Assembly (NCBI GenBank): GCA_964016885.1
Contig: OZ024740.1
Coordinates: 251,410,001-251,474,000 of the forward strand
Reading direction: 5' to 3'
DNA length: 64,000 bases
From: Eledone cirrhosa
Lineage: Eukaryota
The translations under genes were made by a program, and so were the position numbers. The notes beneath the pieces are model-generated. The model worked only from the letters and a program-made list of their open reading frames with translations. It was not told the DNA's origin and made no database searches. Below are positions 1 through 64,000 of the stretch, piece by piece (within the stretch, counting starts at the first letter, position 1; each line of letters starts with the position of its first letter).

Positions 1-56
1 CCCCTTGGACGGCTAGAAATTACCTCTCCTTGGACGGCTGGAAAATATGTCTCCTT

Positions 57-81
57 GGACGGCTGGAAATTATCTCCCCTT
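57..81 (+). repeat. Type example of monomer A, 25 bp: GGACGGCTGGAAATTATCTCCCCTT
   Basis: Exact tandem copies at 57-81 and 82-106. Occurs in short runs (mostly about 2-9) throughout and carries the consensus CpG. Confidence 0.97.
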
Positions 82-206
82 GGACGGCTGGAAATTATCT
101 CCCCTTGGACGGCTGGAAATTATCTCCCCTTGGACGGCTAGAAATTACCTCTCCTTGGACGGCTGAAAATTATCTCCCCTTGGACGGCTGGAAATTATCT
201 CCCCCT

Positions 207-233
207 GATTTTTTTTACAAATTATCTCCCCCT
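207..233 (+). repeat. Type example of monomer B, 27 bp: GATTTTTTTTACAAATTATCTCCCCCT (T run 7-11)
   Basis: Tandem runs of up to about 15-16 copies, e.g. 3066-3478 and 17076-17488. Length varies mainly in the T tract. Confidence 0.97.
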
Positions 234-1080
234 GATTTTTTTTACAAATTATCTCCGCCTGATTTTTTTAAATATTATCTCTCCTTGGCTGGCGGGAAAT
301 TATCTCCCCTTGGACGGCTGCAAATTATCTCCGCTTGATTTTTTTTACAAATTATCTTCCCCTGATTTTTTTTTACAAATTATCTCCCCCTGATTTTTTT
401 TACAAATTATCTCCCCTGATTTTTTTTTACAAATTATCTCCCCCTGATTTTTTTTTACAAATTATCTCCCCCTGATTTTTTTTTACAAATTATCTCCCCC
501 TGATTTTTTTACAAATTATCTCCCCCTGATTTTTTTTACAATCTCCGCCTGATTTTTTTAAAAATTATCTTCCCTTGGCTGGCGGGAAATTATCTCCCCT
601 TGGACGGCTGGAAATTATCTCCCCTTGGAAGGATGGAAATTATCTCCCCTTGGACGGCTGGAAATTATCTCCCCTTGCACGGCTGGAAATTATCTCCCCT
701 TGGCTGGAAATTATCTCCCCTTGGACGGCTAGAAATTATCTCTCTTTGGATGGCTGGAAATTATCTCCCTTTGATTTTTTTTACAAATTATCTCCCTCTG
801 ATTTTTTTTACAAATCTCCCCCTGATTTTTTTTTACAAATTATCTCCCCCTGATTTTTTTTACAAACTATCGCCCCTGATTTTTTTACAAATTATCTCCC
901 CTTGGCTGGCTGGAAATTATCTCCCCTTGGAGGCTGGAATTTATCTCCCCTTGGACGGCTGGAAATTACCTCTCCTTGGACGGCTGAAAATTATCTCCCC
1001 TTGGACGGCTGGAAATTATCTCCCCTTGATTTTTTTACAAATTATCTCCCCCTGATTTTTTTTTTACAAATTATCTCCCC

Positions 1081-4000
1081 CTGATTTTTTTTACAAATTA
1101 TCTACGCCTGATTTTTTTAAATATTATCTCTCCTTGGCTGGCGGGAAATTATCTCCCCTTGGAAGGATGGAAATTATCTCCCCTTGGACGGCTGGAAATT
1201 ATCTCCCCTTGCACTGCTGGAAATTATCTCTCCTTGGACGGCTGGAAATTATCTGCCCTTGATTTTGTTTTTACAAATTATCTTCCCCTGATTATTTTTA
1301 CAAATTATCTCCACCTGATTTTTTAAAAAATTATCTCCCCTTGGACGGCTGGAAATTATCTCCCCTTGGCTGGAAATTATCTCCCCTTGGACGGCTAGAA
1401 ATTATCTCTCTTTGGACGGCTGGAAATTATCTCCCCTTGATTTTTTTTACAAATTATCTCCCCCTGATTTTTTTTACAAATTATCTCCCCATGATTTTTA
1501 AAAAAAAAATTATCTCCCCTTCGCTGGCTGGAAATTATCTCCCCTTGGACGCTGGAAATTATAGCCCCTTGGAGGGCTGGAAATTATCTTCCCTTGGACG
1601 GCTGGAAATTATCTCCCCTTGATTTTTTTTACAAATTATCTCCCCCTGATTTTTTTTTACAAATTATCTCCCCCTGATTTTTTTTTTACAAATTATCTCC
1701 GCCTGATTTTTTTAAAAAAATTATCTCCCCTTGGACGGCTGGAAATTATCTCCCCTTGGACGGCTGGAAATTATCTCCCCTTGGACGGCTAGAAATTACC
1801 TCTCCTTGGACGGCTGAAAATTATCTCCCCTTGGACGGCTGCAAATTATCTCCCCTTGATTTTTTTTACAAATTATCCCCCCATGATTTAAAAAAAAAAA
1901 ATTATCTCCCCTTCGCTGGCTGGAAATTATCTCCCCTTGGACGCTGGAAATTATAGCCCCTTGGAGGGCTGGAAATTATCTTCCCTTGGACGGCTGGAAA
2001 TTATCTCCCCTTGATTTTTTTTACAAATTATCTCCCCCTGATTTTTTTTTACAAATTATCTCCCACTGATTTTTTTTTACAAATTATCTCCTCCTGATTT
2101 TTTTTTTACAAATTATCTCCGCCTGATTTTTTAAAAAAAATTATCTCCCCTTGGACGGCTGGAAATTATCTCCCCTTGGACGGCTGGAAATTATCTCCCC
2201 TTGGACGGCTAGAAATTACCTCTCCTTGGACGGCTGAAAATTATCTCCCCTTGGACGGCTGCAAATTATCTCCCCTTGATTTTTTTTACAAATTATCTCC
2301 CCCTGATTTTTTTTACAAATTATCTCCCCCTGATTTTTTTTACAAATTATCTCCCCCTGATTTTTTTTTACAAATTATCTCCCCCTGATTTTTTTTTACA
2401 AATTATCTCCCCCTGATTTTTTTTACAAATTATCTCCCCCTGATTTTTTTTACAAATTATCTCCCCCTGATTTTTTTTACAATCTCCGCCTGATTTTTTA
2501 AAAAATTATCTTCCCTTGGCTGGCGGGAAATTATCTCCCCTTGGACGGCTGGAAATTATCTCCCCTTGGACGGCTAGAAATTATCTCTCTTTGGACGGCT
2601 GGAAATTATCTCCCCTTGATTTTTTTTACAAATTATCTCCCCCTGATTTTTTTTACAAATTATCCCCGCATGATTTTTAAAAAAAAAATTATCTCCCCTT
2701 CGCTGGCTGGAAATTATCTCCCCTTGGACGCTGGAAATTATAGCCCCTTGGAGGGCTGGAAATTATCTTCCCTTGGACGGCTGGAAATTATCTCCCCTTG
2801 ATTTTTTTTACAAATTATCTCCCCCTGATTTTTTTTTACAAATTATCTCCCCCTGATTTTTTTTTACAAATTATCTCCCCCTGATTTTTTTTTTTACAAA
2901 TTATCTCCGCCTGATTTTTAAAAAAAAATTATCTCCCCTTGGACGGCTGGAAATTATCTCCCCTTGGACGGCTGGAAATTATCTCCCCTTGGACGGCTAG
3001 AAATTACCTCTCCTTGGACGGCTGAAAATTATCTCCCCTTGGACGGCTGCAAATTATCTCCCCTTGATTTTTTTTACAAATTATCTCCCCCTGATTTTTT
3101 TTACAAATTATCTCCCCCTGATTTTTTTTACAAATTATCTCCCCCTGATTTTTTTTTACAAATTATCTCCCCCTGATTTTTTTTTACAAATTATCTCCCC
3201 CTGATTTTTTTTACAAATTATCTCCCCCTGATTTTTTTTACAAATTATCTCCCCCGGATTTTTTTTAATAAATTATCTCCCCTTGATTTTTTTTTACAAA
3301 TTATCTCCGCCTGATTTTTTTTTTACAAATTATCTTCCCCTGATTTTTTTACAAATTATCTCCCCCTGATTTTTTTTACAAATTATCTCCCCCTGATTTT
3401 TTTTACAAATTATCTCCCCTTGATTTTTTTTTACAAATTATCTCCCCCTGATTTTTTTTTTACAAATTATCTCCCCCTGATTTTTTTAAAAATTATCTTC
3501 CCTTGGCTGGCGGGAAATTATCTCCCCTTGGACGGCTGGAAATTATCTCCCCTTGGAAGGATGTAAATTATCTCCCCTTGGACGGCTGGAAATTATCTCC
3601 CCTTGCACGGCTGGAAATTATCTCCCCTTGATTTTTTTTACAAATTATCTCCCCCTGATTTTTTTTTACAAATTATCTCCCCCTGATTTTTTTTTACAAA
3701 TTATCTCCCCCTGATTTTTTTTACAAATTATCTCCCCCTGATTTAAAAAAAAAAAATTATCTCCCCTTCGCTGGCTGGAAATTATCTCCCCTTGGACGCT
3801 GGAAATTATAGCCCCTTGGAGGGCTGGAAATTATCTTCCCTTGGACGGCTGGAAATTATCTTCCCTTGGACGGCTGGAAATTATCTCCCCTTGATTTTTT
3901 TTACAAATTATCTCCCCCTGATTTTTTTTTACAAATTATCTCCCCCTGATTTTTTTTTTACAAATTATCTCCCCCTGATTTTTTTTTTACAAATTATCTC

Positions 4001-7000
4001 CGCTTGATTTTTAAAAAAAAATTATCTCCCCTTGGACGGCTGGAAATTATCTCCCCTTGAACGGCTGGAAATTATCTCCCCTTGGACGGCTAGAAATTAT
4101 CTCTCCTTGGACGGCTGAAAATTATCTCCCCTTGGACGGCTGCAAATTATCCCCCCTTGATTTTTTTTACAAATTATCTCCCCCTGATTTTTTTTTACAA
4201 ATTATCTCCCCCTCATTTTTTTTACAAATTATCTACCCCTGATTTTTTTTACAAATTATCTCCCCCTGATTTTTTTTTACAAATTATCTCCCCCTGATTT
4301 TTTTTTACAAATTATCTCCCCCTGATTTTTTTTTTACAAATTATCTCCCCCTGATTTTTTTACAAATTATCTCCCCCTGATTTTTTTTACAATCTCCGCC
4401 TGATTTTTTTAAAAATTATCTTCCCTTGGCTGGCGGGAAATTATCTCCCCTTGGACGGCTGGAAATTATCTCCCCTTGGAAGGATGGAAATTATCTCCCC
4501 TTGGACGGCTGGAAATTATCTCCCCTTGCACGGCTGGAAATTATCTCCCCTTGGCTGGAAATTATCTCCCCTTGGACGGCTAGAAATTATCTCTCTTTGG
4601 ATGGCTGGAAATTATCTCCCTTTGATTTTTTTTACAAATTATCTCCCTCTGATTTTTTTTACAAATCTCCCCCTGATTTTTTTTTACAAATTATCTCCCC
4701 CTGATTTTTTTTACAAACTATCGCCCCTGATTTTTTTACAAATTATCTCCCCTTGGCTGGCTGGAAATTATCTCCCCTTGGAGGCTGGAATTTATCTCCC
4801 CTTGGACGGCTAGAAATTACCTCTCCTTGGACGGCTGGAAAATATGTCTCCTTGGACGGCTGGAAATTATCTCCCCTTGGACGGCTGGAAATTACCTCTC
4901 CTTGGACGGCTGAAAATTATCTCCCCTTGGACGGCTGGAAATTATCTCCCCTTGATTTTTTTACAAATTATCTCCCCCTGATTTTTTTTTACAAATTATC
5001 TCCCCCTGATTTTTTTTACAAATTATCTACGCCTGATTTTTTTAAATATTATCTCTCCTTGGCTGGCGGGAAATTATCTCCCCTTGGAAGGATGGAAATT
5101 ATCTCCCCTTGACGGCTGGAAATTATCTCCCCTTGCACTGCTGGAAATTATCTCCCCTTGGACGGCTGGAAATTATCTGCCCTTGATTTTGTTTTTACAA
5201 ATTATCTTCCCCTGATTATTTTTACAAATTATCTCCACCTGATTTTTTAAAAAATTATCTCCCCTTGGACGGCTGGAAATTATCTCCCCTTGGCTGGAAA
5301 TTATCTCCCCTTGGACGGCTAGAAATTATCTCTCTTTGGACGGCTGGAAATTATCTCCCCTTGATTTTTTTTACAACTTATCTCCGCCTGATTTTTTTTA
5401 AAAAATCATCTCCCCTTGGACGGCTGGAAATTATCTCCCCTTGGACGGCTGGAAATTATCTCTCCTTGGACGGCTAGAAATTACCTCTCCTTGGATAATT
5501 GAAAATTATCTCCCCTTGGACGGCTGGAAATTATCTCCCCTTGATTTTTTTTACAAATTATCTCCCCCTGATTTTTTTTACAAATTATCTCCCCTGATTT
5601 TTTTTTACAAATTATCTCCCCCTGATTTTTTTTTACAAATTATCTCCCCCTGATTTTTTTACAAATTATCTCCCCCTGATTTTTTTTACAATCTCCGCCT
5701 GATTTTTTTAAAAATTATCTTCCCTTGGCTGGCGGGAAATTATCTCCCCTTGGACGGCTGGAAATTATCTCCCCTTGGAAGGATGGAAATTATCTCCCCT
5801 TGGACGGCTGGAAATTATCTCCCCTTGCACGGCTGGAAATTATCTCCCCTTGGCTGGAAATTATCTCCCCTTGGACGGCTAGAAATTATCTCTCTTTGGA
5901 TGGCTGGAAATTATCTCCCTTTGATTTTTTTTACAAATTATCTCCCTCTGATTTTTTTTACAAATCTCCCCCTGATTTTTTTTTACAAATTATCTCCCCC
6001 TGATTTTTTTTACAAATTATCTACGCCTGATTTTTTTAAATATTATCTCTCCTTGGCTGGCGGGAAATTATCTCCCCTTGGAAGGATGGAAATTATCTCC
6101 CCTTGGACGGCTGGAAATTATCTCCCCTTGCACTGCTGGAAATTATCTCCCCTTGGACGGCTGGAAATTATCTGCCCTTGATTTTGTTTTTACAAATTAT
6201 CTTCCCCTGATTATTTTTACAAATTATCTCCACCTGATTTTTTAAAAAATTATCTCCCCTTGGACGGCTGGAAATTATCTCCCCTTGGCTGGAAATTATC
6301 TCCCCTTGGACGGCTAGAAATTATCTCTCTTTGGACGGCTGGAAATTATCTCCCCTTGATTTTTTTTACAAATTATCTCCCCCTGATTTTTTTTACAAAT
6401 TATCTCCCCATGATTTTTAAAAAAAAAATTATCTCCCCTTCGCTGGCTGGAAATTATCTCCCCTTGGACGCTGGAAATTATAGCCCCTTGGAGGGCTGGA
6501 AATTATCTTCCCTTGGACGGCTGGAAATTATCTCCCCTTGATTTTTTTTACAAATTATCTCCCCCTGATTTTTTTTTACAAATTATCTCCCCCTGATTTT
6601 TTTTTTACAAATTATCTCCGCCTGATTTTTTTAAAAAAATTATCTCCCCTTGGACGGCTGGAAATTATCTCCCCTTGGACGGCTGGAAATTATCTCCCCT
6701 TGGACGGCTAGAAATTACCTCTCCTTGGACGGCTGAAAATTATCTCCCCTTGGACGGCTGCAAATTATCTCCCCTTGATTTTTTTTACAAATTATCCCCC
6801 CATGATTTTTAAAAAAAAAATTATCTCCCCTTCGCTGGCTGGAAATTATCTCCCCTTGGACGCTGGAAATTATAGCCCCTTGGAGGGCTGGAAATTATCT
6901 TCCCTTGGACGGCTGGAAATTATCTCCCCTTGATTTTTTTTACAAATTATCTCCCCCTGATTTTTTTTTACAAATTATCTCCCACTGATTTTTTTTTACA

Positions 7001-10000
7001 AATTATCTCCCCCTGATTTTTTTTTTACAAATTATCTCCGCCTGATTTTTTAAAAAAAATTATCTCCCCTTGGACGGCTGGAAATTATCTCCCCTTGGAC
7101 GGCTGGAAATTATCTCCCCTTGGACGGCTAGAAATTACCTCTCCTTGGACGGCTGAAAATTATCTCCCCTTGGACGGCTGCAAATTATCTCCCCTTGATT
7201 TTTTTTACAAATTATCTCCCCCTGATTTTTTTTACAAATTATCTCCCCCTGATTTTTTTTACAAATTATCTCCCCCTGATTTTTTTTTACAAATTATCTC
7301 CCCCTGATTTTTTTTTACAAATTATCTCCCCCTGATTTTTTTTACAAATTATCTCCCCCTGATTTTTTTTACAAATTATCTCCCCCTGATTTTTTTTACA
7401 ATCTCCGCCTGATTTTTTAAAAAATTATCTTCCCTTGGCTGGCGGGAAATTATCTCCCCTTGGACGGCTGGAAATTATCTCCCCTTGGACGGCTAGAAAT
7501 TATCTCTCTTTGGACGGCTGGAAATTATCTCCCCTTGATTTTTTTTACAAATTATCCCCGCATGATTTTTAAAAAAAAAATTATCTCCCCTTCGCTGGCT
7601 GGAAATTATCTCCCCTTGGACGCTGGAAATTATAGCCCCTTGGAGGGCTGGAAATTATCTTCCCTTGGACGGCTGGAAATTATCTCCCCTTGATTTTTTT
7701 TACAAATTATCTCCCCCTGATTTTTTTTTACAAATTATCTCCCCCTGATTTTTTTTTACAAATTATCTCCCCCTGATTTTTTTTTTTACAAATTATCTCC
7801 GCCTGATTTTTAAAAAAAAATTATCTCCCCTTGGACGGCTGGAAATTATCTCCCCTTGGACGGCTGGAAATTATCTCCCCTTGGACGGCTGGAAATTATC
7901 TCCCCTTGGACGGCTAGAAATTACCTCTCCTTGGACGGCTGAAAATTATCTCCCCTTGGACGGCTGCAAATTATCTCCCCTTGATTTTTTTTACAAATTA
8001 TCTCCCCCTGATTTTTTTTACAAATTATCTCCCCCTGATTTTTTTTACAAATTATCTCCCCCTGATTTTTTTTTACAAATTATCTCCCCCTGATTTTTTT
8101 TTACAAATTATCTCCCCCTGATTTTTTTTACAAATTATCTCCCCCTGATTTTTTTTACAAATTATCTCCCCCTGATTTTTTTTAATAAATTATCTCCCCT
8201 TGATTTTTTTTTACAAATTATCTCCCCCTGATTTTTTTTTTACAAATTATCTCCCCCTGATTTTTTTACAAATTATCTCCCCCTGATTTTTTTTACAAAT
8301 TATCTCCCCCTGATTTTTTTTACAAATTATCTCCCCTTGATTTTTTTTTACAAATTATCTCCCCCTGATTTTTTTTTTACAAATTATCTCCCCCTGATTT
8401 TTTTAAAAATTATCTTCCCTTGGCTTGCGGGAAATTATCTCCCCTTGGACGGCTGGAAATTATCTCCCCTTGGAAGGATGTAAATTATCTCCCCTTGGAC
8501 GGCTGGAAATTATCTCCCCTTGCACGGCTGGAAATTATCTCCCCTTGATTTTTTTTACAAATTATCTCCCCCTGATTTTTTTTTACAAATTATCTCCCCC
8601 TGATTTTTTTTACAAATTATCTCCCCCTGATTTAAAAAAAAAAAATTATCTCCCCTTCGCTGGCTGGAAATTATCTCCCCTTGGACGCTGGAAATTATAG
8701 CCCCTTGGAGGGCTGGAAATTATCTTCCCTTGGACGGCTGGAAATTATCTTCCCTTGGACGGCTGGAAATTATCTCCCCTTGATTTTTTTTACAAATTAT
8801 CTCCCCCTGATTTTTTTTTACAAATTATCTCCCCCTGATTTTTTTTTACAAATTATCTCCCCCTGATTTTTTTTTTACAAATTATCTCCGCTTGATTTTT
8901 TAAAAAAAATTATCTCCCCTTGGACGGCTGGAAATTATCTCCCCTTGGACGGCTGGAAATTATCTCCCCTTGGACGGCTAGAAATTATCTCTCCTTGGAC
9001 GGCTGAAAATTATCTCCCCTTGGACGGCTGCAAATTATCTCCCCTTGATTTTTTTTACAAATTATCTCCCCCTGATTTTTTTTTACAAATTATCTCCCCC
9101 TCATTTTTTTTACAAATTATCTACTCCTGATTTTTTTTACAAATTATCTCCCCCTGATTTTTTTTTACAAATTATCTCCCCCTGATTTTTTTTTACAAAT
9201 TATCTCCCCCTGATTTTTTTTTTACAAATTATCTCCCCCTGATTTTTTTACAAATTATCTCCCCCTGATTTTTTTTACAATCTCCGCCTGATTTTTTTAA
9301 AAATTATCTTCCCTTGGCTGGCGGGAAATTATCTCCCCTTGGACGGCTGGAAATTATCTCCCCTTGGAAGGATGGAAATTATCTCCCCTTGGACGGCTGG
9401 AAATTATCTCCCCTTGCACGGCTGGAAATTATCTCCCCTTGGCTGGAAATTATCTCCCCTTGGACGGCTAGAAATTATCTCTCTTTGGATGGCTGGAAAT
9501 TATCTCCCTTTGATTTTTTTTACAAATTATCTCCCTCTGATTTTTTTTACAAATCTCCCCCTGATTTTTTTTTACAAATTATCTCCCCCTGATTTTTTTT
9601 ACAAACTATCGCCCCTGATTTTTTTACAAATTATCTCCCCTTGGCTGGCTGGAAATTATCTCCCCTTGGAGGCTGGAATTTATCTCCCCTTGGACGGCTA
9701 GAAATTACCTCTCCTTGGACGGCTGGAAAATATGTCTCCTTGGACGGCTGGAAATTATCTCCCCTTGGACGGCTGGAAATTACCTCTCCTTGGACGGCTG
9801 AAAATTATCTCCCCTTGGACGGCTGGAAATTATCTCCCCTTGATTTTTTTACAAATTATCTCCCCCTGATTTTTTTTTTACAAATTATCTCCCCCTGATT
9901 TTTTTTACAAATTATCTACGCCTGATTTTTTTAAATATTATCTCTCCTTGGCTGGCGGGAAATTATCTCCCCTTGGAAGGATGGAAATTATCTCCCCTTG

Positions 10001-10265
10001 GACGGCTGGAAATTATCTCCCCTTGCACTGCTGGAAATTATCTCCCCTTGGACGGCTGGAAATTATCTGCCCTTGATTTTGTTTTTACAAATTATCTTCC
10101 CCTGATTATTTTTACAAATTATCTCCACCTGATTTTTTAAAAAATTATCTCCCCTTGGACGGCTGGAAATTATCTCCCCTTGGCTGGAAATTATCTCCCC
10201 TTGGACGGCTAGAAATTATCTCTCTTTGGACGGCTGGAAATTATCTCCCCTTGATTTTTTTTACA
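1081..10265 (+). repeat. ~4.9-kb higher-order duplication: ~1081-5375 repeated at ~6000-10265
   Basis: ORF-track landmark offsets: 1341/6260, 2176/7095 and 2541/7460 = 4919; 4057/8945, 4426/9314 and 4753/9641 = 4888. Shared rare variant TTTAATAAA at 3264 and 8181. Confidence 0.88.
1705..1732 (+). repeat. Type example of linker monomer C: GA-TnAm-TTATCTCCCCTT (B-to-A junction unit)
   Basis: GATTTTTTTAAAAAAATTATCTCCCCTT. It looks like B with ACAAA replaced by an A run and precedes nearly all A runs. Confidence 0.92.
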
Positions 10266-13200
10266 AATTATCTCCCCCTGATTTTTTTTACAAATTATCC
10301 CCCCATGATTTTTTAAAAAAAAATTATCTCCCCTTCGCTGGCTGGAAATTATCTCCCCTTGGACGCTGGAAATTATAGCCCCTTGGAGGGCTGGAAATTA
10401 TCTTCCCTTGGACGGCTGGAAATTATCTCCCCTTGATTTTTTTTACAAATTATCTCCCCCTGATTTTTTTTTACAAATTATCTCCCCCTAATTTTTTTAA
10501 AAAAATTATCTCCCCTTGGACGGCTGGAAATTATCTCCCCTTGGACGGCTGGAAATTATCTCCCCTTGGACGGCTAGAAATTACCTCTCCTTGGACGGCT
10601 GAAAATTATCTCCCCTTGGACGGCTGCAAATTATCTCCCCTTGATTTTTTTTACAAATTATCCCCCCATGATTTTTAAAAAAAAAATTATCTCCCCTTCG
10701 CTGGCTGGAAATTATCTCCCCTTGGACGCTGGAAATTATAGCCCCTTGGAGGGCTGGAAATTATCTTCCCTTCGACGGCTGGAAATTATCTCCCCTTGAT
10801 TTTTTTTACAAATTATCTCCCCCTGATTTTTTTTTACAAATTATCTCCCACTGATTTTTTTTTACAAATTATCTCCCCCTGATTTTTTTTTTACAAATTA
10901 TCTCCGCCTGATTTTTTAAAAAAAATTATCTCCCCTTGGACGGCTGGAAATTATCTCCCCTTGGACGGCTGGAAATTATCTCCCCTTGGACGGCTAGAAA
11001 TTACCTCTCCTTGGACGGCTGAAAATTATCTCCCCTTGGACGGCTGCAAATTATCTCCCCTTGATTTTTTTTACAAATTATCTCCCCCTGATTTTTTTTA
11101 CAAATTATCTCCCCCTGATTTTTTTTACAAATTATCTCCCCCTGATTTTTTTTTACAAATTATCTCCCCCTGATTTTTTTTTACAAATTATCTCCCCCTG
11201 ATTTTTTTTACAAATTATCTCCCCCTGATTTTTTTTACAATCTCCGCCTGATTTTTTAAAAAATTATCTTCCCTTGGCTGGCGGGAAATTATCTCCCCTT
11301 GGACGGCTGGAAATTATCTCCCCTTGGACGGCTAGAAATTATCTCTCTTTGGACGGCTGGAAATTATCTCCCCTTGATTTTTTTTACAAATTATCTCCCC
11401 CTGATTTTTTTTACAAATTATCCCCGCATGATTTTTAAAAAAAAAATTATCTCCCCTTCGCTGGCTGGAAATTATCTCCCCTTGGACGCTGGAAATTATA
11501 GCCCCTTGGAGGGCTGGAAATTATCTTCCCTTGGACGGCTGGAAATTATCTCCCCTTGATTTTTTTTACAAATTATCTCCCCCTGATTTTTTTTTACAAA
11601 TTATCTCCCCCTGATTTTTTTTTACAAATTATCTCCCCCTGATTTTTTTTTTTACAAATTATCTCCGCCTGATTTAAAAAAAAAAATTATCTCCCCTTGG
11701 ACGGCTGGAAATTATCTCCCCTTGGACGGCTGGAAATTATCTCCCCTTGGACGGCTAGAAATTACCTCTCCTTGGACGGCTGAAAATTATCTCCCATTGG
11801 ACGGCTGCAAATTATCTCCCCTTGATTTTTTTTACAAATTATCTCCCCCTGATTTTTTTTACAAATTATCTCCCCCTGATTTTTTTTACAAATTATCTCC
11901 CCCTGATTTTTTTTTACAAATTATCTCCCCCTGATTTTTTTTTACAAATTATCTCCCCCTGATTTTTTTTACAAATTATCTCCGCCTGATTTTTTTAAAT
12001 ATTATCTCTCCTTGGCTGGCGGGAAATTATCTCCCCTTGGAAGGATGGAAATTATCTCCCCTTGGACGGCTGGAAATTATCTCCCCTTGCACTGCTGGAA
12101 ATTATCTCCCCTTGGACGGCTGGAAATTATCTGCCCTTGATTTTGTTTTTACAAATTATCTTCCCCTGATTATTTTTACAAATTATCTCCACCTGATTTT
12201 TTAAAAAATTATCTCCCCTTGGACGGCTGGAAATTATCTCCCCTTGGCTGGAAATTATCTCCCCTTGGACGGCTAGAAATTATCTCTCTTTGGACGGCTG
12301 GAAATTATCTCCCCTTGATTTTTTTTACAAATTATCTCCCCCTGATTTTTTTTACAAATTATCCCCCCATGATTTAAAAAATAAAAATTATCTCCCCTTC
12401 GCTGGCTGGAAATTATCTCCCCTTGGACGCTGGAAATTATAGCCCCTTGGAGGGCTGGAAATTATCTTCCCTTGGACGGCTGGAAATTATCTCCCCTTGA
12501 TTTTTTTTACAAATTATCTCCCCCTGATTTTTTTTTTACAAATTATCTCCGCCTGATTTTTTTAAAAAAATTATCTCCCCTTGGACGGCTGGAAATTATC
12601 TCCCCTTGGACGGCTGGAAATTATCTCCCGTTGGACGGCTAGAAATTACCTCTCCTTGGACGGCTGAAAATTATCTCCCCTTGGACGGCTGCAAATTATC
12701 TCCCCTTGATTTTTTTTACAAATTATCCCCCCATGATTTTTAAAAAAAAAATTATCTCCCCTTCGCTGGCTGGAAATTATCTCCCCTTGGACGCTGGAAA
12801 TTATAGCCCCTTGGAGGGCTGGAAATTATCTTCCCTTGGACGGCTGGAAATTATCTCCCCTTGATTTTTTTTACAAATTATCTCCCTCTGATTTTTTTTT
12901 ACAAATTATCTCCCACTGATTTTTTTTTACAAATTATCTCCCCCTGATTTTTTTTTTACAAATTATCTCCGCGTGATTTTTTTTAAAAAATTATCTCCCC
13001 TTGGACGGCTGGAAATTATCTCCCCTTGGACGGCTGGAAATTATCTCGCCTTGGACGGCTAGAAATTACCTCTCCTTGGACGGCTGAAAATTATCTCCCC
13101 TTGGACGGCTGCAAATTATCTCCTCTTGATTTTTTTTACAAATTATCTCCCCCTGATTTTTTTTACAAATTATCTCCCCCTGATTTTTTTTACAAATTAT

Positions 13201-13329
13201 CTCCCCCTGATTTTTTTTTACAAATTATCTCCCCCTGATTTTTTTTCCAAATTATCTCCCCCTGATTTTTTTTACAAATTATCTCCCCCTGATTTTTTTT
13301 ACAAATTATCTCCCCCTGATTTTTTTTAC

Positions 13330-16300
13330 AATCTCCGCCTGATTTTTTAAAAAATTATCTTCCCTTGGCTGGCGGGAAATTATCTCCCCTTGGACGGCTG
13401 GAAATTATCTCCCCTTGGACGGCTAGAAATTATCTCTCTTTGGACGGCTGGAAATTATCTCCCCTTGATTTTTTTTACAAATTATCTCCCCCTGATTTTT
13501 TTTACAAATTATCCCCGCATGATTTTTAAAAAAAAAATTATCTCCCCTTCGCTGGCTGGAAATTATCTCCCCTTGGACGCTGGAAATTATAGCCCCTTGG
13601 AGGGCTGGAAATTATCTTCCCTTGGACGGCTGGAAATTATCTCCCCTTAATTTTTTTTACAAATTATCTCCCCCTGATTTTTTTTTACAAATTATCTCCC
13701 CCTGATTTTTTTTTACAAATTATCTCCCCCTGATTTTTTTTTTTACAAATTATCTCCGCCTGATTTTTAAAAAAAAATTATCTCCCCTTGGACGGCTGGA
13801 AATTATCTCCCCTTGGACGGCTGGAAATTATCTCCCCTTGGACGGCTAGAAATTACCTCTCCTTGGACGGCTGAAAATTATCTCCCCTTGGACGGCTGCA
13901 AATTATCTCCCCTTGATTTTTTTTACAAATTATCTCCCCCTGATTTTTTTTACAAATTATCTCCCCCTGATTTTTTTTACAAATTATCTCCCCCTGATTT
14001 TTTTTTACAAATTATCTCCCCCTGATTTTTTTTTACAAATTATCTCCCCCTGATTTTTTTTACAAATTATCTCCCCCTGATTTTTTTTACAAATTATCTC
14101 CCCCTGATTTTTTTTTACAAATTATCTCCCCTTGATTTTTTTTTACAAATTATCTGCCCCTGATTTTTTTTTTACAAATTATCTCCCCCTGATTTTTTTA
14201 CAAATTATCTCCCCCTGATTTTTTTTACAAATTATCTCCCGCTGATTTTTTTTACAAATTATCTCCCCTTGATTTTTTTTTACAAATTATCTCCCCTTGA
14301 TTTTTTTTTACAAATTATCTCCCCCTGATTTTTTTTTTACAAATTATCTCCCGCTGATTTTTTTAAAAATTATCTTCCCTTGGCTGGCGGGAAATTATCT
14401 CCCCTTGGACGGCTGGAAATTATCTCCCCTTGGAAGGATGTAAATTATCTCCCCTTGGACGGCTGGAAATTATCTCCCCTTGCACGGCTGGAAATTATCT
14501 CCCCTTGATTTTTTTTACAAATTATCTCCCCCTGATTTTTTTTTACAAATTATCTCCCCCTGATTTTTTTTTACAAATTATCTCCCCCTGATTTTTTTTA
14601 CAAATTATCTCCCCCTGATTTTTAAAAAAAAAATTATCTCCCCTTCGCTGGCTGGAAATTATCTCCCCTTGGACGCTGGAAATTATAGCCCCTTGGAGGG
14701 CTGGAAATTATCTTCCCTTGGACGGCTGGAAATTATCTTCCCTTGGACGGCTGGAAATTATCTCCCCTTGATTTTTTTTACAAATTATCTCCCCCTGATT
14801 TTTTTTTACAAATTATCTCCCCCTGATTTTTTTTACAAATTATCTACCCCTGATTTTTTTTACAAATTATCTCCCCCTGATTTTTTTTTACAAATTATCT
14901 CCCTCTGATTTTTTTTTACAAATTATCTCCCCCTGATTTTTTTTTTACAAATTATCTCCCCCTGATTTTTTTACAAATTATCTCCCCCTGATTTTTTTTA
15001 CAATCTCCGCCTGATTTTTTAAAAAATTATCTTCCCTTGGCTGGCGGGAAATTATCTCCCCTTGGACGGCTGGAAATTATCTCCCCTTGGACGGCTAGAA
15101 ATTATCTCTCTTTGGACGGCTGGAAATTATCTCCCCTTGATTTTTTTTACAAATTATCTCCCCCTGATTTTTTTTACAAATTATCCCCGCATGATTTTAA
15201 AAAAAAAAATTATCTCCCCTTCGCTGGCTGGAAATTATCTCCCCTTGGACGCTGGAAATTATAGCCCCTTGGAGGGCTGGAAATTATCTTCCCTTGGACG
15301 GCTGGAAATTATCTCCCCTTGATTTTTTTTACAAATTATCTCCCCCTGATTTTTTTTTACAAATTATCTCCCCCTGATTTTTTTTTACAAATTATCTCCC
15401 CCTGATTTTTTTTTTTACAAATTATCTCCGCCTGATTTTTAAAAAAAAATTATCTCCCCTTGGACGGGTGGAAATTATCTCCCCTTGGACGGCTGGAAAT
15501 TATCTCCCCTTGGACGGCTAGAAATTACCTCTCCTTGGACGGCTGAAAATTATCTCCCCTTGGACGGCTGCAAATTATCTCCCCTTGATTTTTTTTACAA
15601 ATTATCTCCCCCTGATTTTTTTTACAAATTATCTCCCCCTGATTTTTTTTACAAATTATCTCCCCCTGATTTTTTTTTACAAATTATCTCCCCCTGATTT
15701 TTTTTTACAAATTATCTCCCCCTGATTTTTTTTACAAATTATCTCCCCCTGATTTTTTTTACAAATTATCTCCCCCTGATTTTTTTTTACAAATTATCTC
15801 CCCTTGATTTTTTTTTACAAATTATCTCCCCCTGATTTTTTTTTTACAAATTATCTCCCCCTGATTTTTTTACAAATTATCTCCCCCTGATTTTTTTTAC
15901 AAATTATCTCCCCCTGATTTTTTTTACAAATTATCTCCCCTTGATTTTTTTTTACAAATTATCTCCCCTTGATTTTTTTTTACAAATTATCTCCCCCTGA
16001 TTTTTTTTTTACAAATTATCTCCCCCTGATTTTTTTAAAAATTATCTTCCCTTGGCTGGCGGGAAATTATCTCCCCTTGGACGGCTGGAAATTATCTCCC
16101 CTTGGAAGGATGTAAATTATCTCCCCTTGGACGGCTGGAAATTATCTCCCCTTGCACGGCTGGAAATTATCTCCCCTTGATTTTTTTTACAAATTATCTC
16201 CCCCTGATTTTTTTTTACAAATTATCTCCCCCTGATTTTTTTTTACAAATTATCTCCCCCTGATTTTTTTTACAAATTATCTCCCCCTGATTTTAAAAAA

Positions 16301-16700
16301 AAAAATTATCTCCCCTTCGCTGGCTGGAAATTATCTCCCCTTGGACGCTGGAAATTATAGCCCCTTGGAGGGCTGGAAATTATCTTCCCTTGGACGGCTG
16401 GAAATTATCTTCCCTTGGACGGCTGGAAATTATCTCCCCTTGATTTTTTTTACAAATTATCTCCCCCTGATTTTTTTTTACAAATTATCTCCCCCTGATT
16501 TTTTTTACAAATTATCTACCCCTGATTTTTTTTACAAATTATCTCCCCCTGATTTTTTTTTACAAATTATCTCCCTCTGATTTTTTTTTACAAATTATCT
16601 CCCCCTGATTTTTTTTTTACAAATTATCTCCCCCTGATTTTTTTCCAAATTATCTCCCCCTGATTTTTTTTACAATCTCCGCCTGATTTTTTAAAAAATT
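13330..16700 (+). repeat. 1,672-bp tandem higher-order unit, 2 copies (also at ~32245-35615)
   Basis: 13390/15062, 13813/15485, 14669/16341 and 32305/33977 all differ by 1672. Confidence 0.85.
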
Positions 16701-17229
16701 ATCTCCCCTTCGCTGGCTGGAAATTATCTCCCCTTGGACGCTGGAAATTATAGCCCCTTGGAGGGCTGGAAATTATCTTCCCTTGGACGGCTGGAAATTA
16801 TCTCCCCTTGATTTTTTTTACAAATTATCTCCCCCTGATTTTTTTTTACAAATTATCTCCCCCTGATTTTTTTTTACAAATTATCTCCCCCTGATTTTTT
16901 TTTTTACAAATTATCTCCGCCTGATTTTTAAAAAAAAATTATCTCCCCTTGGACGGCTGGAAATTATCTCCCCTTGGACGGCTGGAAATTATCTCCCCTT
17001 GGACGGCTAGAAATTACCTCTCCTTGGACGGCTGAAAATTATCTCCCCTTGGACGGCTGCAAATTATCTCCCCTTGATTTTTTTTACAAATTATCTCCCC
17101 CTGATTTTTTTTACAAATTATCTCCCCCTGATTTTTTTTACAAATTATCTCCCCCTGATTTTTTTTTACAAATTATCTCCCCCTGATTTTTTTTTACAAA
17201 TTATCTCCCCCTGATTTTTTTTACAAATT

Positions 17230-19000
17230 ATCTCCCCCTGATTTTTTTTACAAATTATCTCCCCCTGATTTTTTTTTACAAATTATCTCCCCTTGATTTT
17301 TTTTTACAAATTATCTCCCCCTGATTTTTTTTTTACAAATTATCTCCCCCTGATTTTTTTACAAATTATCTCCCCCTGATTTTTTTTACAAATTATCTCC
17401 CCCTGATTTTTTTTACAAATTATCTCCCCTTGATTTTTTTTTACAAATTATCTCCCCCTGATTTTTTTTTTACAAATTATCTCCCCCTAATTTTTTTAAA
17501 AATTATCTTCCCTTGGCTGGCGGGAAATTATCTCCCCTTGGACGGCTGGAAATTATCTCCCCTTGGAAGGATGTAAATTATCTCCCCTTGGACGGCTGGA
17601 AATTATCTCCCCTTGCACGGCTGGAAATTATCTCCCCTTGATTTTTTTTACAAATTATCTCCCCCTGATTTTTTTTTACAAATTATCTCCCCCTGATTTT
17701 TTTTTACAAATTATCTCCCCCTGATTTTTTTTACAAATTATCTCCCCCTGATTTAAAAAAAAAAAATTATCTCCCCTTCGCTGGCTGGAAATTATCTCCC
17801 CTTGGACGCTGGAAATTATAGCCCCTTGGAGGGCTGGAAATTATCTTCCCTTGGACGGCTGGAAATTATCTTCCCTTGGACGGCTGGAAATTATCTCCCC
17901 TTGATTTTTTTTACAAATTATCTCCCCCTGATTTTTTTTTACAAATTATCTCCCCCTGATTTTTTTTTACAAATTATCTCCCCCTGATTTTTTTTTTACA
18001 AATTATCTCCGCTTGATTTTTTAAAAAAAATTATCTCCCCTTGGACGGCTGGAAATTATCTCCCCTTGGACGGCTAGAAATTATCTCTCCTTGGACGGCT
18101 GAAAATTATCTCCCCTTGGACGGCTGCAAATTATCTCCCCTTGATTTTTTTTACAAATTATCTCCCCCTGATTTTTTTTTACAAATTATCTCCCCCTGAT
18201 TTTTTTTTACAAATTATCTCCCCTTGATTTTTTTTTACAAATTATCTCCCCCTGATTTTTTTTTTACAAATTATCTCCCCCTGATTTTTTTACAAATTAT
18301 CTCCCCCTGATTTTTTTTACAAATTATCTCCCCCTGATTTTTTTTACAAATTATCTCCCCTTGATTTTTTTTTACAAATTATCTCCCCCTGATTTTTTTT
18401 TTACAAATTATCTCCCCCTGATTTTTTTAAAAATTATCTTCCCTTGGCTGGCGGGAAATTATCTCCCCTTGGACGGCTGGAAATTATCTCCCCTTGGAAG
18501 GATGTAAATTATCTCCCCTTGGACGGCTGGAAATTATCTCCCCTTGCACGGCTGGAAATTATCTCCCCTTGATTTTTTTTACAAATTATCTCCCCCTGAT
18601 TTTTTTTTACAAATTATCTCCCCCTGATTTTTTTTTACAAATTATCTCCCCCTGATTTTTTTTACAAATTATCTCCCCCTGATTTTTAAAAAAAAAATTA
18701 TCTCCCCTTCGCTGGCTGGAAATTATCTCCCCTTGGACGCTGGAAATTATAGCCCCTTGGAGGGCTGGAAATTATCTTCCCTTGGACGGCTGGAAATTAT
18801 CTTCCCTTGGACGGCTGGAAATTATCTCCCCTTGATTTTTTTTACAAATTATCTCCCCCTGATTTTTTTTTACAAATTATCTCCCCCTGATTTTTTTTTA
18901 CAAATTATCTCCCCCTGATTTTTTTTTTACAAATTATCTCCGCTTGATTTTTAAAAAAAAATTATCTCCCCTTGGACGGCTGGAAATTATCTCCCCTTGG
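17230..19000 (+). repeat. 931-bp tandem higher-order unit, about 2 copies (recurs near 36.7, 40.6 and 53.9 kb; 881-bp version near 50.2 kb)
   Basis: 17802/18733, 36717/37648, 40616/41547 and 53935/54866 all differ by 931. 50185/51066 differ by 881, consistent with two 25-bp monomers missing near 50870. Confidence 0.85.
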
Positions 19001-22000
19001 ACGGCTGGAAATTATCTCCCCTTGGACGGCTAGAAATTATCTCTCCTTGGACGGCTGAAAATTATCTCCCCTTGGACGGCTGCAAATTATCTCCCCTTTA
19101 TTTTTTTTACAAATTATCTCCCCCTGATTTTTTTTTACAAATTATCTCCCCCTCATTTTTTTACAAATTATCTACCCCTGATTTTTTTTACAAATTATCT
19201 CCCCCTGATTTTTTTTTACAAATTATCTCCCTCTGATTTTTTTTACAAATTATCTCCCCCTGATTTTTTTTTTACAAATTATCTCCCCCTGATTTTTTTA
19301 AAAATTATCTCCCCCTGATTTTTTTACAATCTCCGCCTGATTTTTTTAAAAATTATCTTCCCTTGGCTGGCGGGAAATTATCTCCCCTTGGACGGCTGGA
19401 AATTATCTCCCCTTGGAAGGATGGAAATTATCTCCCCTTGGACGGCTGGATATTATCTCCCCTTGCACGGCTGGAAATTATCTCCCCTTGGCTGGAAATT
19501 ATCTCCCCTTGGACGGCTAGAAATTATCTCTCTTTGGACGGCTGGAAATTATCTCCCTTTGATTTTTTTTACAAATTATCTCCCTCTGATATTTTTTACA
19601 AATCTCCCCCTGATTTTTTAAAAAAAATTATCTCCCCTTCGCTGGCTGGAAATTATCTCCCCTTGGACACTGGAAATTATAGCCCCTTGGAGGGCTGGAA
19701 ATTATCTTCCCTTGGACGGCTGGAAATTATCTCCCCTTGATTTTTTTTACAAATTATCTCCGCCTGATTTTTTTTAAAAATTATCTCTCCTTGGACGGCT
19801 GGAAATTATCTCCCCTTGATTTTTTTTACAAATTATCTCCCCCTGATTTTTTTTACAAATTATCTCCCCCTGATTTTTTTTTACAAATTATCTACCACTG
19901 ATTTTTTTTACAAATTATCTCCCCCTGATTTTTTTTACAAATTATCTCCCCCTGATTTTTCTTTTACAAATTATCTCCCCCTGATTTTTTTACAAATTAT
20001 CTCCCCCTGATTTTTTTACAAATTATCTCCGCCTGATTTTTTTAAATATTATCTTCCCTTGGCTGGCGGGAAATTATCTCCCCTTGGACGGCTGGAAATT
20101 ATCTGCCCTTGATTTTGTTTTTACAAATTATCTTCCACTGATTTTTTTTACAAATTATCTCCACCTGATTTTTTAAAAAATTATCTCCCCTTGGAAGGCT
20201 GGAAATTATCTCCCCTTGGACGGCTAGAAATTATCTCTCTTTGGACGGCTGGAAATTATCTCCCCTTGATTTTTTTTACAAATTATCTCCCCCTGATTTT
20301 TTTTACAAATATCCCAGTGATTTTTTTTTAAAAATTATCTCCCCTTCGCTGGCTGGAAATTATCTCCCCTTGGACGCTGGAAATTATAGCCCCTTGGAGG
20401 GCTGGAAATTATCTTCCCTTGGACGGCTGGAAATTATCTCCCCTTGATTTTTTTTACAAATTATCTCCCCCTGATTTTTTTTTACAAATTATCTCCCCCT
20501 GATTTTTTTTTACAAATTATCTCCCCCTGATTTTTTTTACAACTTATCTCCGCCTGATTTTTTTTAAAAAATCATCTCCCCTTGGACGGCTGGAAATTAT
20601 CTCCCCTTGGACGGCTGGAAATTATCTCCCCTTGATTTTTTTACAAATTATCTCCCCCTGATTTTTTTTTACAAATTATCTCCCCCTGATTTTTTTTACA
20701 AATTATCTCCCCCTGATTTTTTTTACAAATTATCTCCCCCTGATTTTTTTTACAAATTATCTCCGCCTGATTTTTTTAAATATTATCTCTCCTTGGCTGG
20801 CGGGAAATTATCTCCCCTTGGACGGCTGCAAATTATCTCCGCTTGATTTTTTTTACAAATTATCTCCCCCTGATTTTTTTTTAAAAATTATCTCCCCCTG
20901 ATTTTTTTTACAAATTATCTCCCCTGATTTTTTTTTACAAATTATCTCCCCCTGATTTTTTTTTACAAATTATCTCCCCCTGATTTTTTTTTTACAAATT
21001 ATCTCCCCCTGATTTTTTTACAAATTATCTCCCCCTGATTTTTTTTACAATCTCCGCCTGATTTTTTTAAAAATTATCTTCCCTTGGCTGGCGGGAAATT
21101 ATCTCCCCTTGGACGGCTGGAAATTATCTCCCCTTGGAAGGATGGAAATTATCTCCCCTTGGACGGCTGGAAATTATCTCCCCTTGCACGGCTGGAAATT
21201 ATCTCCCCTTGGCTGGAAATTATCTCCCCTTGGACGGCTAGAAATTATCTCTCTTTGGATGGCTGGAAATTATCTCCCTTTGATTTTTTTTACAAATTAT
21301 CTCCCTCTGATTTTTTTTACAAATCTCCCCCTGATTTTTTTTTACAAATTATCTCCCCCTGATTTTTTTTACAAACTATCTCCCCCTGATTTTTTTACAA
21401 ATTATCTCCCCTTGGCTGGCTGGAAATTATCTCCCCTTGGAGGCTGGAATTTATCTCCCCTTGGACGGCTAGAAATTACCTCTCCTTGGACGGCTGGAAA
21501 ATATGTCTCCTTGGACGGCTGGAAATTATCTCCCCTTGGACGGCTGGAAATTACCTCTCCTTGGACGGCTGAAAATTATCTCCCCTTGGACGGCTGGAAA
21601 TTATCTCCCCTTGCACTGCTGGAAATTATCTCCCCTTGGACGGCTGGAAATTATCTGCCCTTGATTTTGTTTTTACAAATTATCTTCCCCTGATTATTTT
21701 TACAAATTATCTCCACCTGATTTTTTAAAAAATTATCTCCCCTTGGACGGCTGGAAATTATCTCCCCTTGGCTGGAAATTATCTCCCCTTGGACGGCTAG
21801 AAATTATCTCTCTTTGGACGGCTGGAAATTATCTCCCCTTGATTTTTTTTACAAATTATCTCCCCCTGATTTTTTTTACAAATTATCCCCCCATGATTTT
21901 TAAAAAAAAAATTATCTCCCCTTCGCTGGCTGGAAATTATCTCCCCTTGGACGCTGGAAATTATAGCCCCTTGGAGGGCTGGAAATTATCTTCCCTTGGA

Positions 22001-63740: not shown

Positions 63741-64000
63741 TTACAAATTATCTCCCCCTGATTTTTTTTACAATCTCCGCCTGATTTTTTAAAAAATTAT
63801 CTTCCCTTGGCTGGCGGGAAATTATCTCCCCTTGGACGGCTGGAAATTATCTCCCCTTGGACGGCTAGAAATTATCTCTCTTTGGACGGCTGGAAATTAT
63901 CTCCCCTTGATTTTTTTTACAAATTATCTCCCCCTGATTTTTTTTACAAATTATCCCCGCATGATTTTTAAAAAAAAAATTATCTCCCCTTCGCTGGCTG

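What the first reader, a model, noticed from the sequence alone, without database searches (positions are those of the whole stretch)
1495..1509. TnAm linkers: the T/A boundary slides while total length stays fixed (12, 14 or 15)
Seen: linkers before the CGCTGGCTGG cassette mostly total 15: T5A10 (1495), T3A12 (1887), T6A9 (10309), T4A11 (15195), T7A8 (47534), even T3A6TA5 (12373). Linkers before the plain-A cassette total 14: T7A7 (1707), T6A8 (2127), T5A9 (2915), T3A11 (11673), T8A6 (12977), T4A10 (26567). Linkers before GGCTGGCGGG total 12: T7A5 (553), T6A6 (2494), T8A4 (27133). Independent slippage of two homopolymers should change the sum. The boundary differs between otherwise near-identical copies (15195 T4A11 vs 34110 T5A10) yet is inherited in others (T3A12 at ~17752, 36667, 40565, 53885). 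Inference: a T/A transversion hotspot driven by the self-complementary tract or transient misalignment, and/or a spacing constraint between cores.
Basis: partly seen in the sequence, partly recalled or inferred. Interest (0 to 1): 0.7.

Follow-up and report, generated by a model that had tools for sequence, protein, structure and literature searches.

The report
Sliding T/A boundary mutation hotspot
In this satellite DNA, wherever a run of T's meets a run of A's the boundary moves one base at a time about a hundred times more often than ordinary letters change, while total length stays put; this is a known mutation hotspot, likely caused by the copying enzyme slipping and snapping back, seen here in thousands of natural copies.

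Summary
Observation confirmed. The window is a 25/27-bp two-monomer satellite with 210 TnAm linkers; in 10 of 11 variable flank classes the sum is constant (1 off-total linker, 68 expected by permutation). Over five arrays (1.59 Mb), near-identical copies differ by 125 boundary shifts and 15 length changes in 2,728 linker comparisons, against 4.8e-4 substitutions per base: about 95-fold. Shifts are mostly single-base (119 of 125), go both ways, need both runs (T-run beside one A: 5 of 16,316), rise with run length and almost never cut a run below three. They are inherited through duplications like ordinary substitutions, so they are not consensus errors, and gene-conversion controls are 35-100 times lower. 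A spacing constraint is not needed: the same cassette has total 14 in 1,341 and 15 in 406 genomic copies. This is the known TTTAAAA>TTTTAAA / poly-T:poly-A junction transversion hotspot of mammals, nematodes and repair-deficient cells, most likely slippage with delayed realignment; hairpin correction is disfavoured, endonuclease nicking is not excluded. New only as a heavily replicated natural reporter. The scan's earlier notes showed nothing similar.

The parts
1..64000 (.). Satellite array of two related monomers in alternating blocks: 25-bp A type (core TTATCTCCCC, GC-rich tail) and 26-30-bp B type (same core, T7-11 run, then ACAAA); 2,432 monomers, irregular kilobase duplications. Part of a roughly 1-Mb array, G000:C1 251.19 to about 252.2 Mb
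1495..1509 (+). Linker T5A10, the commonest state of the total-15 lineage; tail of a B-type monomer before the CGCTGGCTGG A monomer
1887..1901 (+). Linker T3A12, the total-15 lineage at the three-base limit
1707..1720 (+). Linker T7A7, total-14 lineage (window states T3A11 to T8A6 before the plain A monomer)
553..564 (+). Linker T7A5, total-12 lineage (T6A6, T7A5, T8A4)
12373..12387 (+). Interrupted linker T3A6TA5: total 15 kept, one A>T inside the A-run; single copy in the four stretches
15195..15209 (+). T4A11; its duplicate at 34110-34124 is T5A10, with 841 and 423 identical bases on either side
12514..21429 (+). 8.9-kb segment duplicated 18,915 bases downstream: 337 monomers, 16 differ; 7 are boundary shifts, 0 linker length changes, 2 T-run length changes, 7 other
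16430..27615 (+). 11.2-kb segment duplicated 36,133 bases downstream: 424 monomers, 8 differ; 2 carry boundary shifts, 0 linker length changes
28834..28846 (+). T6A7, the one true length variant within a both-flank class in the window (its five siblings are T6A6)
263..274 (+). T7A3TA form of the total-12 linker (18 copies end B blocks in the window); also in contigs of two other organisms, so likely the older form
1439..1453 (+). Example of the internal control: B monomer tail GA-T8-ACAAA, a long T-run beside a single A, whose junction is not hypermutable

Best explanation
The linkers are T-run/A-run junctions inside a satellite where single A<->T substitutions move the boundary in either direction about 95 times more often than an average base changes, likely because the replicating polymerase slips by one base in the first run and the strands realign while it copies the second run. 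SHOWN: the events are substitutions, so the sum is kept; each total (12, 14, 15) is inherited from the founder of that monomer lineage and changes only by ordinary, roughly eight times rarer indels; duplication of array segments then copies each state. INFERRED: on either strand the polymerase meets the T-run first; a +1 or -1 slip there makes a one-base loop; once a few A's are added the loop collapses, leaving a T:T or A:A mismatch at the junction and the primer end back in register. The mismatch would lie three or more base pairs behind the primer end, out of reach of proofreading, and some such mismatches would escape mismatch repair and be fixed at the next round. This accounts for the need for two runs, the rise with run length, both directions, one-base steps and the halt at three. 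No function is implied.
For: Context-matched copies in five arrays on four chromosomes, both orientations: 125 shifts and 15 length changes in 2,728 linker comparisons; 121 length changes in 17,130 lone T-run comparisons; 480 substitutions in 994,257 bases; shift-to-substitution ratio 87, 135, 89, 133 and 65 in the five arrays. A monomer-free recount agrees: 123 shifts and 13 length changes in 2,613 for T|A with both runs >=4. Two runs needed: T>=6 beside one A 5 of 16,316; beside two A's 0 of 71; A>=6 followed by TT 0 of 1,885; one A before T>=6 5 of 18,871. Rate by longest run: 1.0% at 6, 3.0% at 7, 6.4% at 8, 6.6% at 9, 7.6% at 10, 8.0% at 11, rising as lone T-run slippage does (0.4% at 7 to about 4-5% at 11); both run lengths enter a Poisson fit. 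Steps: 119 of 125 one base; direction 41 toward more T, 57 toward more A (P=0.13). Limit: a three-base run shrank in 0 of 303 comparisons, 9.9 expected (P=5e-5); genome-wide T2 5 against T3 547 and A2 8 against A3 1,845, and the five T2A13 copies are one lineage whose siblings are T3A13 and T4A12. Other substitutions at the two junction bases were few (4 events to C or G). Published parallels, passages seen: PMC3755907, PMC5932607, 10.1101/529214, 10.1101/2020.08.04.234245.
Against: No step of the mechanism was observed; all is read from standing variation in one assembly, with polarity set by majority, which can be wrong. The three-base limit is equally what an endonuclease needing four T's before the nick would give. 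T3A12 shifts slowly (4 of 165) while T10A3 and T11A3 do not (6 of 57, 5 of 56), an asymmetry the model does not explain. In the neighbouring AT-rich satellite a T2A7 form (7 copies) stands beside T3A6, so the limit is not absolute, and T3A6 there showed 0 shifts in 294 comparisons. The abundance of A3 may be partly ancestral, since AAA ends every monomer. The model alone predicts a similar hotspot at long A-then-T junctions; this satellite has none to test. Simple dislocation would also predict some excess beside a single base, which is absent here although reported for AC3+ sites in E. coli (PMC13250602, passages). 6 of 125 events skip a state.
Confidence: 0.62

Rival explanations
1. A retrotransposon endonuclease of the LINE-1 type nicks at TTTT/AA and error-prone repair puts A at the nicked T. 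Both strands of TnAm carry the site, so the boundary moves both ways and stops when fewer than four T's remain.
For: Proposed for the human NTT[A>T]AAA hotspot (PMC6138700, passages) and repeated for mammals (PMC10566577, passages). It predicts the halt at three, both directions and A<->T only, all seen. A LINE-like fragment lies beside the array (family assignment recalled, not tested).
Against: The rate rises six- to eightfold from longest run 6 to 8-11, beyond a 6-base site, and T6A6, a full site on both strands, is the slowest state (4 of 383). The same hotspot is seen in wild-type C. elegans (10.1101/529214), which lacks LINE-1 (recalled). Two L1 ORF1 families gave no match in G000 (PF02994, PF14111), but the controls rang nowhere, so this is weak.
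Confidence: 0.13
2. The self-complementary tract folds into a hairpin or cruciform, and template switching or micro-inversion rewrites the boundary.
For: T5A10 and T5A9, the commonest states in this array, are the reverse complements of T10A5 and T9A5; 6 of 7 linkers fold into a 5-7-pair stem; shorter-run length adds to the Poisson fit; a few multi-base or interrupted variants exist.
Against: No drift toward the perfect palindrome (44 toward, 42 away); rate is flat against the shorter run alone (4-9%) and lowest at T6A6; 119 of 125 steps are one base and no n/m swap was among the six larger steps; stems are weak, 0 to -3.1 kcal/mol.
Confidence: 0.1
3. Selection keeps the spacing between monomer cores fixed, removing length mutants.
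For: 15 length changes were seen where 25.7 (P=0.016) or 41.8 (marked monomers only, unstable fit) were expected from lone T-run rates; 9 against 23.9 in the smaller set. No ATGA-W16 linker exists before CGCTGG genome-wide.
Against: Totals of 11-16 are all present; the same cassette is 14 in 1,341 and 15 in 406 copies; B monomers vary freely from T7 to T11. The substitution clock in linker monomers ran about 24% slower than in T-run monomers (18 and 148 events), which would absorb part of the deficit; capture of slips as shifts would explain the rest. Constraint cannot explain the 95-fold excess of shifts.
Confidence: 0.05
4. Non-allelic gene conversion merely shuffles a few old boundary states among linkers of the same total.
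For: Conversion supplies about 70% of point changes in Arabidopsis centromeric arrays (10.1101/2025.06.02.657473, passages); it would keep the total.
Against: Very common neighbouring alleles convert rarely: C5T/C4T2 6 of 13,826, common A-monomer variants 9 of 7,120, against 4.6% for shifts. In two-state groups 65 of 67 steps are one base, 38.8 expected if donors were drawn by array frequency (0 of 20,000 simulations; 72 of 77 against 40.0 with longer flanks). It cannot create the nine states T3-T11.
Confidence: 0.04
5. Base-calling or consensus error at the T/A boundary.
For: Homopolymer junctions are error-prone (general knowledge). The platform of the assembly is unknown to me, and no single locus could be checked in raw reads.
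Against: Shifted states are shared by two or more copies in 44 of 102 events, as are 168 of 375 ordinary substitutions; arrays in both orientations behave alike. Illumina reads of other samples with the same species label show alternative boundary states in both mate directions: at 1499 T>A 7 of 82 and 3 of 78 reads, at 1500 A>T 15 of 83 and 12 of 84; for the total-12 linker, reads at 99%+ likeness, reads whose only difference is 2500 A>T, and 2501 A>T in 7 of 1,424 and 13 of 811, with one-base gaps in 16 of 1,429 and 24 of 812. These reads pool many copies and classes.
Confidence: 0.04

Closest known systems
TTTAAAA>TTTTAAA (NTT[A>T]AAA) germline hotspot of humans and other mammals (PMC6138700; PMC10566577; passages seen)
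   Same: A<->T change at the TpA step between a T-run and an A-run; the shrinking run keeps three bases, as the 7-mer implies; among the most mutable contexts.
   Different: Mammalian figures are for a 7-mer (more than 6-fold in humans, 9-59-fold across mammals over the A>T rate). Here longer runs give about 196-fold per junction base over other A<->T changes, and one lineage can be followed through many successive steps. Those papers favour LINE-1 nicking; the length dependence here favours slippage.
5'-TTA-3' <-> 5'-TAA-3' transversions at boundaries of A/T homopolymers in wild-type C. elegans mutation-accumulation lines (10.1101/529214; passages seen)
   Same: TpA context, runs of 7-11, both directions equally frequent, repair-proficient germline.
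   Different: There, scattered de novo events in unique DNA; here, standing variation in a satellite with matched one-run controls and step sizes.
'Double slippage' boundary shifts in msh2 yeast (PMC3755907), T>A at adjoining A and T runs in mlh-1/pms-2 worms (PMC5932607; PMC8727991), and 'reverse template slippage' in MMR-knockout human cells (10.1101/2020.08.04.234245); passages seen
   Same: Substitution at abutting repeats that shifts the boundary without changing length; 10-100-fold dependence on both flanking runs; the same proposed slip-and-realign mechanism.
   Different: Those come from mismatch-repair mutants and are mostly in A-then-T (ATT) context, with indels far outnumbering shifts. 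Here shifts outnumber linker indels about 8 to 1, the context is T-then-A, and repair status is unknown.
Quasi-palindrome template switching and micro-inversion (recalled, no call)
   Same: Length-preserving change in a self-complementary tract.
   Different: Predicts drift to the perfect palindrome and multi-base events; neither dominates here.

Membership tests
Poly-T/poly-A junction transversion hotspot (TTTAAAA>TTTTAAA type) | Change is an A<->T substitution at the TpA step, length unchanged | tested here: met
   125 shifts, 119 one-base; 4 junction changes to C or G; 15 length changes
Poly-T/poly-A junction transversion hotspot (TTTAAAA>TTTTAAA type) | Rate far above the background A<->T rate | tested here: met
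   4.6% per comparison (95% interval 3.8-5.5%); about 95-fold over all substitutions per base, about 196-fold per junction base over other A<->T
Poly-T/poly-A junction transversion hotspot (TTTAAAA>TTTTAAA type) | Needs runs on both sides and grows with their length | tested here: met
   5 of 16,316 beside one A; 2.4-5.9% with both runs >=3; 1.0% to 8.0% from longest run 6 to 11
Poly-T/poly-A junction transversion hotspot (TTTAAAA>TTTTAAA type) | Shrinking run keeps three bases beyond the mutated one | tested here: met
   0 of 303, 9.9 expected; genome-wide 5 against 547 and 8 against 1,845; one exception in a neighbouring satellite
Poly-T/poly-A junction transversion hotspot (TTTAAAA>TTTTAAA type) | Both directions occur about equally | tested here: met
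   41 against 57 polarised events, P=0.13; polarity by majority only
Poly-T/poly-A junction transversion hotspot (TTTAAAA>TTTTAAA type) | Seen as de novo germline mutation | not testable with these tools
   No pedigree or mutation-accumulation data
MMR-deficiency slippage signature (ATT context) | Hot A-then-T junctions and indels far outnumbering shifts | tested here: not met
   A>=6 then TT 0 of 1,885 (a two-base run is a weak test); shifts outnumber linker indels 125 to 15
MMR-deficiency slippage signature (ATT context) | Loss of mismatch repair | not tested
   Repair genes of G000 were not examined
LINE-1 endonuclease nick mutagenesis | Active L1-type element in the genome | tested here: inconclusive
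   No PF02994 or PF14111 match in G000, without a working positive control
LINE-1 endonuclease nick mutagenesis | Rate set by the short TTTT/AA site, not by longer runs | tested here: not met
   T6A6 1.0% against 6-8% for longest run 8-11; that the enzyme ignores longer runs is my assumption
Quasi-palindrome template switching | Changes improve the palindrome | tested here: not met
   44 toward, 42 away from n=m
Length-constrained functional spacer | One spacing kept across lineages | tested here: not met
   Totals 11-16; same cassette 14 in 1,341 and 15 in 406 copies

The most novel reading that the evidence does not exclude
These arrays are a natural, thousands-fold replicated reporter showing that the ubiquitous TTTAAAA>TTTTAAA hotspot, usually laid to LINE-1 nicking, is made by slippage with delayed realignment in repair-proficient germlines: the rate follows run length, the boundary does an unbiased one-base walk between walls at three that mark the reach of polymerase proofreading, and abutting runs turn would-be indels into substitutions, so that T/A junctions are length-stabilised but act as a clock about 100 times faster than point mutation for dating satellite duplications.
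Probability: 0.35. Interest if true: 0.6.

Novelty: new member of a known kind. Interest (0 to 1): 0.4.

Why it matters
The hotspot is known, but its cause in repair-proficient germlines is disputed in the papers seen (LINE-1 nicking against slippage). Here the same junction is copied thousands of times at totals of 12-15 bases, next to matched one-run controls, which gives run-length dependence, step size, direction and the lower limit from one assembly. These measurements lean toward slippage and make the question testable in a simple reporter. In practice, T/A boundary states are homoplasic and should be down-weighted in satellite phylogenies, or used as a fast clock for very recent duplications. 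No biological function of the linker is indicated.

Tried and rejected
Spacing constraint, palindrome correction, gene conversion alone and consensus error: tested and set aside (see rivals). Micro-inversion of T10A5 to T5A10 was my first idea; no n/m swap appears among the six multi-base events. The idea that all linkers arose from TnACAAA by one C>A change is not established: T7A3TA, found in two other organisms, looks like the older total-12 form. Replication-direction bias: both forward arrays with enough data and both reverse arrays lean toward more A (24 up/26 down and 8/12 forward; 4/9 and 4/10 reverse), too few to interpret. The neighbouring AT-rich satellite was examined as an independent replicate and gave none: its only T|A junction is T3A6, 0 shifts in 294. 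The L1 ORF1 searches were blank without a working control. RAD-seq reads pile up from many copies and appear cut at AATT (inferred from where loose ends begin), which enriches T7A3TA, so read shares are not copy frequencies. Of nine literature searches, none listed a paper whose title or abstract start concerns boundary walks in satellite arrays; the library lacks most subscription papers, and no supplements were read. Earlier scan notes held nothing on this feature.

Full report
1. The observation. The whole window is one satellite array. It parses into 2,432 monomers of two kinds that share the core TTATCTCCCC: a 25-bp A type with a GC-rich tail, and a 26-30-bp B type ending in GA, a run of 7-11 T's and ACAAA. 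The 'linkers' are tails of variant B monomers in which the T-run abuts an A-run. Of 210 linkers with total 11 or more, 54 of 54 before GGCTGGCGGG total 12, 54 of 69 before CGCTGGCTGG total 15 and 51 of 65 before GGACGGCTGG total 14; the exceptions have other left flanks. With both flanks defining a class, 10 of 11 variable classes keep a single sum, and 1 of 156 linkers is off its class total against 67.9 on average when m is permuted against n. Because copies share descent, that permutation overstates the case, so I counted events instead.

2. Setting. The window lies at G000:C1:251,410,001-251,474,000 in a 3.0-Gb genome, described as an animal's in earlier scan notes that I did not check. 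The array runs from about 251.19 to 252.2 Mb and grows by irregular kilobase duplications. Sister arrays occur on C1, C2, C3 and C4 in both orientations. I analysed five contiguous stretches totalling 1.59 Mb (790, 150, 400, 200 and 50 kb); six isolated 10-kb samples were left out of the event counts. This is a sample of the arrays, not all of them.

3. Event counts. Monomers were grouped when the six monomers on each side were identical; each extra state in a group counts as one event and group size minus one as the exposure. Result: 125 boundary shifts and 15 length changes in 2,728 linker comparisons (4.6% and 0.55%); 121 length changes in 17,130 lone T-run comparisons (0.71%); 480 substitutions in 994,257 bases (4.8e-4). 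Some of the 15 length changes are the same lineage counted twice. The shift rate is about 95 times the per-base substitution rate (65-135 in the five arrays; the C4 value rests on one event) and about 196 times the rate of other A<->T changes per junction base. Flanks of four or eight monomers on a smaller set and a monomer-free method with 150-base flanks (123 shifts, 13 length changes in 2,613) agree. One duplication inside the window shows it directly: across 337 monomers, 7 of 16 differences are boundary shifts and none is a linker length change. These are relative rates between copies, not rates per generation.

4. What the hotspot needs. Two runs: a T-run of six or more beside one A shifted in 5 of 16,316 comparisons, beside two A's in 0 of 71, and with both runs at least three in 2.4-5.9%. 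The A-run's other end, followed by TT, shifted in 0 of 1,885; short C/T, G/A and T/G junctions were near background. Length: 1.0, 3.0, 6.4, 6.6, 7.6 and 8.0% for longest run 6 to 11, but 2.4% at 12, which is nearly all T3A12. Steps are one base in 119 of 125. Direction is balanced (41 toward more T, 57 toward more A; 44 toward and 42 away from symmetry). A three-base run never shrank (0 of 303; 9.9 expected from runs of 4-6). Genome-wide, T2 linkers number 5 against 547 T3, and A2 8 against 1,845 A3 (the A3 form may be partly ancestral). The five T2A13 copies are one lineage beside T3A13 and T4A12, so they may be a deletion, not a shift. Against a strict limit, a neighbouring satellite has T2A7 in 7 copies beside T3A6.

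5. Is it real? Shifted states are shared by two or more copies in 44 of 102 events, as are 168 of 375 ordinary substitutions and 29 of 87 T-run changes; random consensus errors would be singletons. Illumina RAD reads from three other samples with the same species label, one study, show alternative states in both mate directions with few gaps (counts under rivals). They pool many copies, so they show that the states exist, not that a given locus is right. Contigs of X15 and X18 also carry them but may be the assembly's source.

6. Why the total is fixed. Each event is a substitution, so the sum is kept. The sum is a lineage trait: ATGA-W14 before CGCTGG has 1,341 genomic copies, W15 406 and W16 none; totals 11 to 16 occur. 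Length changes were fewer than lone-run rates predict (15 against 25.7, P=0.016; 9 against 23.9), but a slower clock in linker monomers could absorb part of this, and capture of slips as shifts could explain the rest. Selection on spacing is not needed.

7. Mechanism. Gene conversion, a major force in plant centromeric arrays (10.1101/2025.06.02.657473, passages), is too rare here (6 of 13,826 and 9 of 7,120 for common neighbouring alleles) and predicts the wrong step sizes (65 of 67 one-base against 38.8 expected). Palindrome correction fails on direction and on weak stems. I commit to slippage with delayed realignment, about 0.62. On either strand the polymerase copies the T-run first; a one-base loop formed there collapses while A's are being added, leaving a T:T or A:A mismatch buried behind the primer end. 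All of these steps are inferred; that a mismatch three or more pairs back escapes proofreading is from general knowledge. Nicking at TTTT/AA by a LINE-1-type endonuclease also predicts both directions and the limit at three, and stays at about 0.13; it fits the length dependence poorly, and two L1 ORF1 families were not found in G000, though without a working control.

8. What is known. I saw search-term passages, not whole texts, of ten papers. [quoted passage not shown] MMR-defective worms: T>A at adjoining A and T runs (PMC5932607; PMC8727991). Wild-type worms: TTA<->TAA transversions at boundaries of runs of 7-11, both directions equal (10.1101/529214). Human MMR-knockout cells: 10-100-fold more T>A at AnTm or TnAm, 'reverse template slippage' (10.1101/2020.08.04.234245). 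Human germline NTT[A>T]AAA, more than sixfold, LINE-1 hypothesis (PMC6138700); 9-59-fold in every mammal examined (PMC10566577). PMC13250602 and PMC10355397 concern run-adjacent substitutions more generally. The feature meets every testable defining trait of the TTTAAAA>TTTTAAA-type hotspot. In nine searches I saw no listing on such walks in satellite arrays; supplements were not read and could hold finer run-length tables.

9. Verdict. Real, well above chance, and a new member of a known kind of mutational hotspot, with no sign of function. Its value lies in the replication and built-in controls, which lean toward slippage in a dispute that the papers seen leave open. Interest 0.4; the bolder reading has probability 0.35 and would merit 0.6.

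Noticed in passing
window 1-64000: Almost every switch from a B block to an A block passes through a linker-type monomer: of 227 B-to-A transitions, 218 end in TnAm or an interrupted form and 9 in plain TnACAAA. Probably descent from a few founder junctions; not explained.
   Followed up: partly
G000:C1 251.19-252.2 Mb and 279.15-279.30 Mb; C2 244.3-247.6 Mb; C3 164.0-167.3 Mb; C4 about 140.1 Mb: The same satellite forms large arrays in both orientations at mid-chromosome positions on at least four of the largest sequences; a centromeric or pericentromeric role is possible but untested.
   Followed up: partly
L016 and L019 (G000:C1 251.80 and 252.20 Mb): Stretches of a different subfamily, with GGCCGGCTGG-type A monomers and no linkers, lie inside and at the end of the array.
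   Followed up: no
G000:C1 about 251.10-251.188 Mb (L005, L006, L178-L184): An unrelated, very AT-rich satellite of 26-, 46- and 65-bp units lies about 4 kb before the array, partly inverted; it has a T3A6 junction with T2A7 and T4A5 variants of 7 copies each.
   Followed up: partly
L006-L007 (G000:C1 251,188,500-251,192,170): Between the two satellites lie a LINE-like fragment (family not tested), a short inverted duplication, about 1.2 kb of (TA)n-rich sequence and a 200-N gap directly before the array.
   Followed up: no
five arrays: Lone T-runs of 8-11 mostly shorten when they change (45 contractions against 12 expansions among polarised events at T8-T11).
   Followed up: partly
runs X1 and X19 on window 2478-2532: Two other organisms carry the total-12 linker with the same flanks, as T7A3TA in both and apparently T6A6 in one, so the satellite and this lineage predate the species.
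   Followed up: partly
window 49039-49053: Linker with first T changed to G (G, T4, A10): total still 15.
   Followed up: no
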